From IMG/VR virus record IMGVR_UViG_2671180422_000003, positions 1 through 13,716 of that record: DNA of 13,716 nt, one strand, 5' to 3'. A program made the position numbers. Positions 1-3,000 of this stretch are shown piece after piece. Source of the stretch: a virus (Duplodnaviria > Heunggongvirae > Uroviricota > Caudoviricetes). Every line of letters begins with the position of its first letter. Within the stretch, counting starts at the first letter, position 1.

Positions 1-3000
1 TTTCGTGTTCATCACACCTGAAGCGACTTCACTGAGAACTGCGCCGATTTTGGTTTCAAATACGCCGCCGTCCAGCTCCCCGATAAATGCCTGCACATCA
101 GTACTGCGTTCGCTAGCCATTTTGCTGCTCCTCATCATATCGACCCTGCAAGGTCGGTTGGTTTCTCCACAAAACAGAGAAGAACACCTGCGGTGGCAGC
201 CGCCCGGATGGATTGGGTTATGAGCCCGTCGTCCGGTGATGCTCTTCTCTGTTTTGTAAAAAGAGCGGTACCAGCCGGAAGCAAGTGTACAAACTGGTAC
301 CGCCAAAGCAGTGGCTGTTGTGGTGACCGGTGCTGATCTCCGGCTTGCGGTTATTTCAGACTCTCACGGGCGTTTAATTGCCCCGCCGAACAGCTCTTTT
401 CCGCATTAGCTGCAATGTCTTTCGCGCATCAGCCTGCGCATTCACCACAACGCTGAGAGCACTTAGCCAGTTACGGCACCACACTTTGTCGCGGCTCCAT
501 AAATGCCCTCATCGTTGCACCCTGGTCTCTTCCCAGGCGTCAAACCGGATCGCCACGCTGGTTAGGCGTCTTATCAGCATCATCATTGACTTGCACATTC
601 CGGCTACCTGGTTTGTTTGCCCGAGCAAGGAGTGGATTGTCCCCTTTAACGTCCCCAGACCGCTAACGACGCATGTGCCATACGCCGTGTTACAACCAAA
701 TTTTGTTTAATCTTGCCTGTGACATGTTTCTTTTAGATACATTATGTATCTCAAGGGTACATTGTCAAGTATAAAAAAACCTGCCGAAGCAGGTTATAAA
801 TATTGATTAGGCCTTTATTTTGTATCTTCTTGGTTTTCCTGAGAAAATTACTGTGCCAATTATAGAGCAATTACCGTTGATCTTAATGTAAGGTTCAGGC
901 CAGTTTGGGTTTAATGCTTTGAGGTAACGCTGTGTTCCATCTTCTATCAACCGCTTAAAGGTGGTTTCGCCTGTATCGTGCATCAATGCAATAACGTCGT
1001 CACCGTGGCAGGCAGGGACTTCAGGATCTACAAAAATCATGTCTCCCGGGCGGTACTCATCAATCATTGAATCACCAATCACCCGCAAGATATAAGTCAT
1101 TTCGCCACAGGGTACAGGGCAGGGATAAGTTTCTGCTGTGCTCAAATCAACCTCAGAATAGCCAACTTCTTTCCATGCTCCGGCCTGTACCCATGATATG
1201 ACAGGGACTAACGTTATTTGTTTGTTAGTAATTGAAACATCAGGTTTTTTTGTGATGTTTGTTGTCTGGTGTTCTTGATCAAGCCATCCGACAGGCAGGT
1301 CGAAACATTTTTCGATGTGCCGCGCCATGCTGTCACCGATATTTTTAGTAGCACCATCTCCCATAAACCTGCTGGTCTGGGTTGGCTCGCGATCAATCAT
1401 GGTGGCAAAGGAAGAATTCCCGCCAACACCATCTCTCAGTTTTCTGGCGTTAGACCGCCGGATGTCATGGACTGTTTTCATAACGAAATTAAAACCTTTG
1501 TACCGATAGGGTACAAGTATCTTGAAGGTTCATCTCAATCATGTAATATGTATATCGGAGGTACATATTGTATGAAAGCGTATTGGGACTCTTTAACCAA
1601 AGAACAGCAGGGCGAGTTGGCCGGAAAAGTTGGCTCAACACCAGGCTACTTACGGCTGGTTTTCAATGGTTATAAAAAAGCCAGTTTTGTGCTGGCTAAA
1701 AAACTTGAGCAATGCACGTCAGGTGCAATTACGAAATCTGACTTAAGACCGGATATCTATCCGAAAGATTAACAGAACACCTTCAATTTTTAACCACAGA
1801 ACGATGAGGCTAACCGTGGGTAAGCATCACTGGAAAGTAGAAAAACAGCCTGAGTGGTACGTGAAAGCTGTCAGAAAAACTATCGCGGCGTTGCCGGGAG
1901 GTTACGCTGAAGCTGCTGAGTGGCTGGATGTAACAGAGAACGCTTTATTCAACCGCCTTCGTGCAGATGGCGATCAGATTTTCCCGCTGGGATGGGCAAT
2001 GATTTTACAGCGCGCGGCTGGCACTCACTACATTGCGGATGCTGTCGCACAGTCTGCTGGTGGGGTGTTTGTATCGCTTCCTGAACTTGAGGAAGTAGAG
2101 AACGCCGATATAAACCAGCGCCTGCTGGAAGTCATCGAACAGATCGGGAGTTACTCAAAGCAGATTCGTTCGGCAATCGAAGATGGGGTAGTGGAGCCAC
2201 ACGAGCAGACAGCAATTAATGATGAGTTGTATCTGTCAATTTCGAAGCTCCAGGAGCATGCAGCACTGGTCTACAAAATCTTTTGCGCTCCAGAAAAGAG
2301 TGACGCCCGCGAGTGTGCAGCTCCGGGCGTCGTGGCGTTTTGTGTCTGTGGAGAAACTAACGCATGAACAGTTTAACGGCAAATAACCGTTTGTCGCAAC
2401 AGCTGGTGGTCAGCGTCGCTGAACACCTGTTGTTACGGCATGAATGCAGATTACCAAATCACCTGGCTGTAAGTAACCACAGAGAACTTTACCTGACTGT
2501 GGGGGGCGAGTTGTGCAGGAACTTAACCGCTGGTTTCGTGACGGAAGAGGGCTTTATGTCCATGTTATTCGTTGGGAGCCAGAAACACAGCGCGTTATCT
2601 ATCTTCGCAAAGACTACCCGCATGAGTGCTTTAGTCCTTTGTGGAAATTCAGGCGTGATTTTGTTGAGTGTGAAGGACCACCAGCACATTGATTCTGCCA
2701 TTCCGGGACGTTACACTGTTCAGGCACCTTATAAAGCGGGTGCCGGGATTGGCGTCCTGGAATTGATCAAGGCGATATATGACGCGCCAGCGTCTTTTTT
2801 ATCGTCCGCATTTGCTCACATCAAAGTTATGGTGGGCTGGGCGGGGGCATCGAAAGATGCGCCGGTTTCCTTGATCACCGGTTACGCCAACCCCGTTCAG
2901 TTCACCACCAGCGAAATTGGCGTTTCCGGTGGTGGAAGTATTTCACCGATCAAGGAGGCTGCCATCATGGCTACTGTCCCAGCCCTCTCTCGTCTGAATG

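What the first reader, a model, noticed from the sequence alone, without database searches (positions are those of the whole stretch)
735..1571. GGTACA-containing palindromes on both sides of the repressor gene (candidate OL and OR operators)
GTACC-GATAG-GGTAC (1500..1514) and further GGTACA elements at 1510 and 1560 lie in the cI-cro intergenic region, and a related GGTACATTGTCAAGTAT plus the palindrome AGATACATTATGTATCT lie left of cI overlapping the leftward promoter. Recurrence of one motif family at both promoters is the arrangement expected for a CI-type repressor controlling PR and PL.
Basis: seen in the sequence. Interest (0 to 1): 0.45.

Follow-up and report, generated by a model that had tools for sequence, protein, structure and literature searches.

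The report
Repressor operators of e14/SfV-type prophage
The repeated GGTACA palindromes are real and are very probably the five binding sites through which this prophage's lambda-like repressor shuts off its two early promoters. It is an ordinary arrangement in an immunity module already annotated in phage SfV and the E. coli K-12 e14 prophage.

Summary
They resolve into one family of five 19-bp sites, aTGTAyC-N5-GrTACAt. Three lie between cI and cro: ORa 1498-1516, ORb 1515-1533, ORc 1548-1566. Two lie just past the cI terminator on the leftward promoter: OLb 744-762 and OLa 724-742.

The consensus with up to 2 mismatches occurs 7 times in 13.7 kb against 1.1 expected, and 5 of the 7 are these sites. 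In 16 diverged Enterobacterales loci (cI 73-88% identical) the three OR sites keep fixed offsets from the cI start. Their arms are conserved and their 5-bp spacers vary freely. The motif also persists in Providencia, Morganella, Salinicola and a Pseudomonas phage that shares only the repressor N-terminal domain and a Cro homolog.

The repressor is 100% identical to SfV cI and 224/225 identical to K-12 YmfK (CohE). The SfV GenBank record already marks exactly the ORa-ORc span as a "putative operator region". I found no binding experiment in the searchable literature.

The parts
724..742 (.). OLa, the outer leftward operator: ATGTTTC-TTTTA-GATACAT. It covers the PL -10 edge and the predicted start site.
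   Evidence: I2; 19.1 bits. The arm next to OLb is invariant across loci, and the distal arm is degenerate or lost in some loci. Homology with K-12 e14 begins at 725.
744..762 (.). OLb, the promoter-proximal leftward operator: ATGTATC-TCAAG-GGTACAT. It lies between the PL -35 and -10.
   Evidence: Best-scoring site in the window, 24.2 bits with a matrix built from other genera. Present 45-76 bp past the cI stop in every enterobacterial locus examined.
741..768 (-). PL, the leftward early promoter: -35 TTGACA at 768-763, 16-bp spacer, -10 CATAAT at 746-741. Predicted start about 734.
   Evidence: 11 of 12 consensus match. TTGACA-ATGTACC...ACATAAT is conserved in all aligned loci. Annotated as a promoter in the phage Ayreon record.
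778..795 (-). Intrinsic terminator of cI: AACCTGC-TTCG-GCAGGTT followed by a T-run.
   Evidence: The hairpin is kept through compensatory changes in other genera. Annotated as a terminator in SfV and Ayreon.
807..1481 (-). cI repressor, 224 aa. Four-helix N-terminal domain with predicted recognition helix 33-40 PTQTSRFM, plus an S24 autocleavage domain (A100-G101, S138, K176).
   Evidence: 100% identical to SfV cI and 224/225 identical to K-12 YmfK.
1487..1516 (-). PRM-like maintenance promoter (inferred): -35 TTGTAC at 1516-1511, 18-bp spacer, -10 TTTAAT at 1492-1487, then 6 nt to the A of the cI ATG (1481). This would give a leaderless cI mRNA.
   Evidence: Read from the sequence. The AAT of the -10 and its distance to the ATG are conserved, and no Shine-Dalgarno sequence is present. 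Below the threshold of the consensus scan. Not verified experimentally.
1498..1516 (.). ORa: TTGTACC-GATAG-GGTACAA, a perfect palindrome centred at -26 of the inferred PRM. The OR3-like position.
   Evidence: Sits 17 bp from the cI ATG in the diverged loci (18 bp in two). Arm conservation 0.92 and 1.00 against spacer 0.48.
1515..1533 (.). ORb: AAGTATC-TTGAA-GGTTCAT. It overlaps ORa by 2 bp, covers the PR -35, and is centred at -43 of the inferred PRM. The OR2-like position. It is the weakest match and the least certain site.
   Evidence: 2 mismatches; 20.2 bits. Fixed offset with the same two deviations from consensus in all enterobacterial loci.
1522..1549 (+). PR, the rightward early promoter (inferred): -35 TTGAAG at 1522-1527, 16-bp spacer, -10 TAATAT at 1544-1549. 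Predicted start about 1556.
   Evidence: The TTG of the -35 and the -10 hexamer columns (TAATAT, CATAAT, TAGAAT) are conserved across loci. 8 of 12 consensus match, so not listed.
1548..1566 (.). ORc: ATGTATA-TCGGA-GGTACAT. It covers the end of the PR -10, the start site and the cro Shine-Dalgarno sequence (GGAGG 1557-1561). The OR1-like position.
   Evidence: 20.6 bits. Sits 67 bp from the cI ATG in the diverged loci (68 bp in two). Its spacer is conserved because it carries the Shine-Dalgarno sequence.
1572..1772 (+). cro, 66 aa, a YdaS/HTH_3-like protein; homolog of K-12 YmfT (CroE).
   Evidence: Homologs accompany the operator motif in all but two of the loci checked, including Pseudomonas phage 5400.

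Best explanation
The five 19-bp sites are the operators of a lambda-type lysis/lysogeny switch. The steps below are inferred unless marked otherwise.

In a lysogen, dimers of the 224-aa CI repressor would use the helix-turn-helix of the N-terminal domain (predicted recognition helix PTQTSRFM) to read the two 7-bp arms (core TGTAyC / GrTACA). The 5-bp spacer would not be contacted base-specifically.

On the right, occupancy of ORc (PR -10 to +10) and ORb (PR -35) blocks PR. That silences cro, the CP76-type regulator, the Ash-family gene, DUF968 and Q. CI at ORb is centred at -43 of a promoter that starts cI mRNA at its own AUG, so it could activate maintenance transcription as lambda CI does at OR2. 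ORa, which overlaps that promoter's -35 and spacer, would shut it off at high CI or when Cro binds.

On the left, OLb (between the -35 and -10) and OLa (-10 to +10) block PL, which lies directly behind the cI terminator.

DNA damage would induce the prophage through RecA-stimulated self-cleavage at Ala100-Gly101 by Ser138/Lys176.

Shown here: the sites, their statistics, their positional and arm-specific conservation, the overlap with promoter-like hexamers, and the repressor's domain make-up. Inferred: binding itself, order of occupancy, activation, the leaderless start, and Cro's use of the same sites.
For: Enrichment: 7 matches against 1.13 expected at up to 2 mismatches, with 5 of 7 in the two regulatory regions.

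A matrix built from 59 sites in 13 other genera ranks the five window sites first, at 19.1-24.2 bits. The next hit is 13.4 bits and then 6.2. Random windows have a mean maximum of 8.4.

Information content is 1.2-1.9 bits per arm position and 0-0.5 bits in the spacer.

The OR sites sit 17, 34 and 67 bp from the cI ATG in the 16 loci with 73-88% identical cI (one base further in two of them). The column-conservation profile supports this.

The PL/OL block TTGACA-ATGTACC-N5-GrTACATAATGTACC is conserved behind a terminator that varies by compensatory changes.

The motif is retained at 60%, 51% and 43% cI identity, and in Pseudomonas phage 5400, where only the N-terminal domain (41/71) and Cro are homologous.

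Homologs with another helix 3 (Comamonas, Variovorax) carry other repeated palindromes at the same places.

The repressor is CI-type.

The SfV record annotates exactly this span as a putative operator region.

The literature treats e14 CohE as an SOS-responsive CI-like repressor.
Against: There is no binding or reporter experiment, here or in any paper I could reach.

Cro co-varies with the motif just as the CI N-terminal domain does, so sequence alone cannot say which protein reads which site.

ORb matches the consensus least well. Part of its conservation could be due to the PR -35 in its spacer and to its 2-bp overlap with ORa.

The distal arm of OLa is degenerate or lost in several relatives.

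PR and the PRM-like promoter fall below the threshold of the consensus scan.

The matrix test is partly circular, because the sites in other loci were first located with a matrix built from the window.
Confidence: 0.85

Rival explanations
1. The sites are real protein-binding sites but are read mainly or only by Cro (YmfT) or by another phage regulator, while CI acts elsewhere or differently.
For: A Cro homolog accompanies the motif in all but two of the loci checked, including the Pseudomonas phage. Co-occurrence therefore does not single out CI.
Against: In every characterised lambdoid switch, CI and Cro share the same operators (established knowledge). No other repeated palindrome is present at PR or PL for CI to use. 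The CI N-terminal domain is conserved with the motif even where the C-terminal part differs.
Confidence: 0.07
2. The conservation reflects promoter elements and translation signals only (-35, -10 and Shine-Dalgarno sequences), and the palindromic look is incidental.
For: Several arms overlap promoter hexamers. The ORb spacer holds the PR -35 TTG, the ORc spacer holds the cro Shine-Dalgarno sequence, and the OLb/OLa junction forms the PL -10.
Against: Both ORa arms are 0.92-1.00 conserved around a freely varying spacer, and its left arm lies outside any hexamer. The same 7-5-7 dyad recurs at three different promoters in different registers. Sigma-70 elements do not require dyad symmetry.
Confidence: 0.04
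3. The operator is the 17-bp palindrome AGATACAT-T-ATGTATCT, so half-sites pair across the junction rather than across the 5-bp spacer.
For: It is a perfect 8+1+8 palindrome, and the equivalent GGTACAT-A-ATGTACC junction is invariant in relatives.
Against: The junction geometry is not reproduced at OR, where the ORa/ORb arms overlap by 2 bp instead of being 1 bp apart. ORa and ORc are free-standing 7-5-7 dyads. Only the 7-5-7 register fits all five sites. The junction is also constrained by the PL -10.
Confidence: 0.03
4. The motifs are host LexA (SOS) boxes or chance repeats.
For: The half-site TGTA resembles the LexA half-site CTGTA.
Against: No CTGT-N8-ACAG match, even with 1 mismatch, lies in 700-1600. 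The spacing differs by 3 bp. Chance is excluded and by the cross-genus conservation.
Confidence: 0.01

Closest known systems
Shigella phage SfV immunity region (cI, cro, 'putative operator region', GenBank U82619.2)
   Same: cI is 100% identical. The annotated putative operator region 26377-26445 maps exactly onto window 1498-1566, that is ORa to ORc. Both OL sites are present with changed spacers.
   Different: SfV carries different DNA (orf33) immediately left of OLa. The SfV record does not annotate individual sites or the OL pair. I could not read the SfV paper itself.
E. coli K-12 e14 prophage, ymfK (cohE) / ymfT (croE)
   Same: YmfK is 224/225 identical. All five sites are present at the same positions. 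The module occurs in 1323 of 5426 complete E. coli genomes. It is described as an SOS-sensitive CI-like repressor.
   Different: The ORa spacer is GTTAA rather than GATAG, and PL leads into ymfJ. I found no published operator mapping.
Phage lambda OR/OL with CI and Cro
   Same: Divergent cI and cro genes. Three operators spanning PR and PRM, with a further operator cluster on PL. A repressor with an HTH N-terminal domain and an S24 C-terminal domain, whose best structural match is 3bdn. The middle site is centred near -42/-43 of the maintenance promoter. A leaderless cI message is inferred.
   Different: Sites are 19 bp (7-5-7) rather than 17 bp, with unrelated sequence. Centre-to-centre spacings are 17 and 33 bp rather than about 23-24 bp, with a 2-bp overlap of ORa and ORb. 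There are two OL sites rather than three. There is a terminator, not rexAB, between cI and PL. No N or cIII genes are present, and the cII-position gene is a CP76-type protein.
Salmonella phage SPC32H Rep (PDB 5D50)
   Same: The N-terminal domains are homologous over residues 1-73 (E = 0.00086; Foldseek E = 2.5e-4).
   Different: The recognition-helix sequence differs (RSQNLVNRW against REPTQTSRF). No match to its C-terminal part was found. To my knowledge Rep lacks an S24 domain and is induced through an antirepressor rather than by self-cleavage; I did not check this here.

Membership tests
Lambda-type CI/Cro immunity switch | Divergently transcribed repressor and cro genes separated by a short regulatory region | tested here: met
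   cI at 807-1481(-) and cro at 1572-1772(+), with a 90-bp intergenic region.
Lambda-type CI/Cro immunity switch | Repressor with an N-terminal helix-turn-helix domain and a C-terminal S24 self-cleaving domain (Ala-Gly site, Ser/Lys dyad) | tested here: met
   PF00717 at E = 1.5e-26. Lambda CI C-terminal domain hits. AF2 model with a four-helix N-terminal domain at pLDDT about 85. Top fold hit is full-length lambda repressor at E = 1.7e-9. A100-G101, S138 and K176 are conserved. Pfam itself does not detect the N-terminal HTH.
Lambda-type CI/Cro immunity switch | Several related dyad-symmetric operators in the cI-cro region overlapping PR and PRM | tested here: met
   Three 19-bp sites at 1498-1566 overlap conserved promoter hexamers. 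The promoters themselves are inferred.
Lambda-type CI/Cro immunity switch | A second cluster of the same operators on the leftward early promoter | tested here: met
   Two sites at 724-762 lie on an 11/12 consensus promoter.
Lambda-type CI/Cro immunity switch | Repressor and Cro physically bind the operators and repress PR and PL; cooperative binding | not testable with these tools
e14/SfV immunity specificity group | Same repressor and same operator arms as SfV cI and K-12 YmfK | tested here: met
   100% identical to SfV cI and 224/225 to YmfK, with all five sites kept. Operator arms are identical or closer to consensus in SfV.
LexA (SOS) box | CTGT-N8-ACAG dyad | tested here: not met
   No match with up to 1 mismatch in 700-1600. 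The spacing of the TGT...ACA cores differs by 3 bp.

The most novel reading that the evidence does not exclude
The switch geometry may not be lambda-like in detail. ORa and ORb overlap by 2 bp, with a 17-bp centre spacing that varies by at most 1 bp from Enterobacterales to Pseudomonas. ORc lies a further 33 bp away. This could mean that dimers at ORa and ORb are mutually exclusive, so that maintenance-promoter control works by competition rather than by lambda's pairwise cooperativity. Alternatively, the repressor might engage sites in a tetrameric 'trans' mode like its N-terminal-domain relative SPC32H Rep. Either would make YmfK/CohE a distinct solution to the bistable-switch problem in a very common E. 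coli prophage.
Probability: 0.12. Interest if true: 0.4.

Novelty: already known. Interest (0 to 1): 0.2.

Why it matters
The finding gives a precise, testable operator model (five sites, consensus aTGTAyC-N5-GrTACAt) for YmfK/CohE and YmfT/CroE. These are two still uncharacterised transcription factors of E. coli K-12. Their module is present in about a quarter of complete E. coli genomes and in CDT- and Stx2c-converting phages and serotype-converting Shigella phages. The model would help annotate immunity groups and predict superinfection immunity among these prophages. It would also help interpret the SOS-inducible 'YmfT' expression module. It does not reveal a new kind of mechanism.

Tried and rejected
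Rfam scan of 1-2400 at E up to 1 found nothing, so there is no known RNA element in the regulatory regions or the long leader left of PL.

Literature: the SfV genome paper and the e14 analysis paper are not held. Searches for SfV, e14, ymfK, ymfT and ymfM with operator or repressor gave no operator mapping. One search (cohE/croE) was swamped by unrelated words.

LexA-box reading: rejected.

Junction-palindrome reading of 735-751: rejected, because only the 7-5-7 register fits all five sites.

GGTACA copies inside cI (1111, 1186): rejected as sites. They are isolated half-sites in conserved codons, and the full-site score at 1099-1117 is 1.1 bits.

The hairpin at 266-305 contains GGTACC twice. 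It is not an operator: the spacing is off by one and it scores low. It folds as a terminator-like stem on the minus strand.

Separating CI from Cro as the reader of the sites by co-occurrence failed, because both travel with the motif.
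Full report
**What is in the window**

The region holds a 224-aa gene on the minus strand (807-1481) with a Peptidase_S24 domain. A divergent 66-aa HTH/YdaS-like gene lies at 1572-1772. After it come a CP76-type 'CII' regulator (1804-2367), an Ash-family gene, DUF968 and a Q antiterminator.

The first 2.4 kb is 99% identical to phage cdtI. It is 94-99% identical to Stx2c-converting phages, Ayreon, 2H10, SfV and SfIV.

The repressor is 100% identical to SfV cI. It differs by one residue (V4I) from YmfK (CohE) of the E. coli K-12 e14 prophage. The 700-1800 segment occurs in 1323 of 5426 complete E. coli genomes.

**Checking the observation**

The GTACC-GATAG-GGTAC element is the core of a perfect 19-bp palindrome, TTGTACC-GATAG-GGTACAA, at 1498-1516.

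A repeat search with no prior input returned one family with copies at 743-762, 1497-1516, 1514-1533 and 1547-1566. It also returned an inverted pair, 724-742 and 744-762. That gives five sites of the form aTGTAyC-N5-GrTACAt:
- OLa, 724-742
- OLb, 744-762
- ORa, 1498-1516
- ORb, 1515-1533
- ORc, 1548-1566

GGTACA is enriched: 13 copies against 5.0 +/- 2.2 expected. The dyad TGTAYC-N5-GRTACA with up to 2 mismatches occurs 7 times against 1.13 +/- 1.0 expected, and 5 of the 7 are these sites. The other two hits are 8105-8121 and 12341-12357.

**Comparative test**

A scan of one genome per species returned 16 loci whose repressor is 73-88% identical. They come from Pseudocitrobacter, Klebsiella, Leclercia, Atlantibacter, Phytobacter, Enterobacter, Pantoea, Trabulsiella, Kluyvera, Limnobaculum, Rahnella, Edwardsiella and others.

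In every one, three sites end 17, 34 and 67 bp upstream of the repressor start codon (one base further in two loci), and a strong site lies 45-76 bp past its stop. Most also have a second site 20 bp further on.

The arms are conserved and the spacers are not. For ORa the arm columns are 0.92 and 1.00 identical, against 0.48 for the spacer.

A matrix built only from 59 sites in 13 of these other loci has 1.2-1.9 bits per arm position and 0-0.5 bits in the spacer. Applied to the window, it ranks the five sites first, at 19.1-24.2 bits. The next hit scores 13.4 bits and the one after 6.2. Random windows reach a mean maximum of 8.4 bits. This test is only partly independent, because the foreign sites were first located with a window-derived matrix. 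Their fixed positions are independent of that.

**More distant relatives**

The same motif and layout persist at 60% repressor identity (Providencia), 51% (Salinicola) and 43% (Morganella). They also persist in Pseudomonas phage 5400, where only the N-terminal 71 residues are clearly homologous (41/71).

All of these keep the helix-3 motif REPTQxSR. Two still more distant homologs with a different helix 3 (Comamonas, Variovorax) carry different repeated palindromes, such as TTAGCC-N3-GGCTAA. These lie in the same two places.

So the motif travels with the repressor's DNA-binding domain. It also travels with Cro: homologs of the 66-aa protein are found beside the motif in nearly all loci, including the Pseudomonas phage. 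That is expected if both proteins read the same sites. It also means sequence alone cannot separate their roles.

**Relation to promoters**

On the left, an 11/12 consensus promoter faces away from cI: TTGACA at 768-763, a 16-bp spacer, and CATAAT at 746-741. It sits directly behind the cI terminator (778-795). OLb fills the gap between the -35 and -10. OLa runs from the -10 to about +10.

The block TTGACA-ATGTACC-N5-GrTACATAATGTACC is conserved in all aligned loci. The terminator stem in front of it changes by compensatory substitutions, and the distal arm of OLa is degenerate or lost in some loci.

On the right, conserved columns fit a rightward promoter: -35 TTGAAG at 1522-1527 (inside the ORb spacer) and -10 TAATAT at 1544-1549 (abutting ORc). 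They also fit a leftward promoter: -35 TTGTAC at 1516-1511 (the right arm of ORa) and -10 TTTAAT at 1492-1487. That -10 ends six bases before the A of the cI ATG, with no Shine-Dalgarno sequence. This implies a leaderless cI message, as at lambda PRM.

Relative to that start, the site centres are at -26 (ORa), -43 (ORb) and -76 (ORc). Both right-hand promoters fall below the consensus-scan threshold and are inferences.

**The repressor**

The C-terminal half aligns with the lambda CI C-terminal domain, UmuD and LexA.

An AlphaFold model built on 32 homologs has mean pLDDT 77.9, with about 85 in the N-terminal domain. It gives a four-helix N-terminal domain (helices 4-19, 22-28, 33-40 and 50-59) and a beta-rich C-terminal domain. 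Its best PDB match is full-length lambda repressor, 3bdn, at E = 1.7e-9.

The Ala100-Gly101 site within VQAGAW, Ser138 and Lys176 correspond to lambda's cleavage site and catalytic dyad, and are conserved. The N-terminal domain is also weakly homologous to that of SPC32H Rep (5D50), which has a different recognition helix.

**Mechanism**

The best-supported reading is a standard lambda-type switch.
- CI at ORc and ORb occludes PR.
- CI at OLb and OLa occludes PL.
- CI at ORb is placed to stimulate the maintenance promoter.
- ORa shuts that promoter off at high CI, or when Cro binds.
- RecA-stimulated self-cleavage induces the prophage.

The sites, their conservation and the protein architecture are shown here. 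Binding, hierarchy, activation and transcription starts are inferred.

ORb is the least secure site. It carries the same two deviations from consensus in all enterobacterial loci, and part of its conservation can be credited to the PR -35.

**What is known**

The SfV GenBank record already marks 26377-26445 as a 'putative operator region'. That is exactly ORa through ORc. The Ayreon record marks the PL promoter and the cI terminator.

Papers I could read describe CohE/YmfK only as a CI-like, SOS-sensitive repressor that probably controls ymfM and its neighbours. They also describe a 'YmfT' expression module made of e14 genes plus SOS genes.

I found no footprint, EMSA, SELEX motif or reporter analysis of these operators. 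The two most relevant papers, on the SfV genome and on e14, are not in the library.

**Differences from lambda**

- The sites are 19 bp rather than 17 bp.
- The centre spacings are 17 and 33 bp, with a 2-bp overlap of ORa and ORb.
- There are two OL sites.
- No N, cII or cIII homologs are present.

The spacing varies by at most 1-2 bp out to Pseudomonas. It might therefore encode a somewhat different logic. This is the only route I see to something new, and I rate it unlikely.

**Verdict**

It is an ordinary, already annotated kind of element in a very common immunity module, so interest is low. The practical value is a concrete operator model for two uncharacterised K-12 regulators.

Noticed in passing
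window 7675-12405: After the lysis cassette (holin 7675-7956, lysozyme 7956-8453, Rz 8438-8917) there are no terminase, portal or capsid genes. The next large ORF (9791-11821, 676 aa) joins a tape-measure N-terminal segment (PF06791) to tail-collar and tail-fibre repeats, and is followed by a tail-fibre assembly gene. No complete E. coli genome holds the window contiguously; the best match covers 81% of it spread over 22 kb. The element looks like a deleted, defective prophage whose immunity switch is intact.
   Followed up: partly
window 120-735, minus strand: About 600 nt lie between the predicted PL start (about 734) and the next leftward gene (start at 120), with no ORF longer than 39 aa. 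On the minus strand at 266-305 there is a strong 10-bp-stem hairpin, GCGGTACCAG...CTGGTACCGC, followed by UCUUUUU (fold z = -3.7). Rfam finds nothing there. This could be a terminator/antitermination leader or an unannotated RNA.
   Followed up: partly
window ~715-725: Similarity to SfV and to K-12 e14 stops at the outer edge of OLa: the K-12 match starts at window 725, and SfV diverges left of about 723. The immunity cassette (OL-terminator-cI-OR-cro) therefore behaves as a mosaic unit whose left boundary is the last operator.
   Followed up: partly
window 12340-12358: A lone sixth operator-like site, CTGAACC-GTGTT-GATACAT, lies inside the tail-fibre assembly gene. It has 1 mismatch to the dyad and scores 13.4 bits. 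About 0.11 hits of at least 12 bits are expected per random window. It is probably chance.
   Followed up: no
window 6631-6646 and 2467-2482: Two perfect CTGT-N8-ACAG dyads in LexA-box format. CTGTAAAAATAAACAG lies 10 nt into the DNA methylase ORF (6621-7673), and CTGTAAGTAACCACAG lies inside the Ash-family gene. The pattern is not enriched overall: 8 matches against 4.9 expected at up to 1 mismatch.
   Followed up: no
L030 (Salinicola) 2240-3333; L027 (Pseudomonas phage 5400) 1413-2286: In Salinicola, a zeta-toxin gene sits between the repressor and its OL pair, which is displaced about 1.1 kb. In Pseudomonas phage 5400, the same N-terminal domain, operators and Cro type are joined to a largely unrelated, longer C-terminal part (261 aa in total). 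Downstream of that repressor there are CTGTATATACAG/A palindromes instead of an OL pair.
   Followed up: partly
L003, L006, L008-L011, L013, L016, L020, just beyond OLa: Many diverged loci share a conserved stretch, ACAGGCAGGACGCCCACGAAGTAGCCG, at the very start of the predicted PL transcript. The window diverges from it after ACAGGCA. This may be a conserved 5' leader element of the SfV/e14-type left operon.
   Followed up: no
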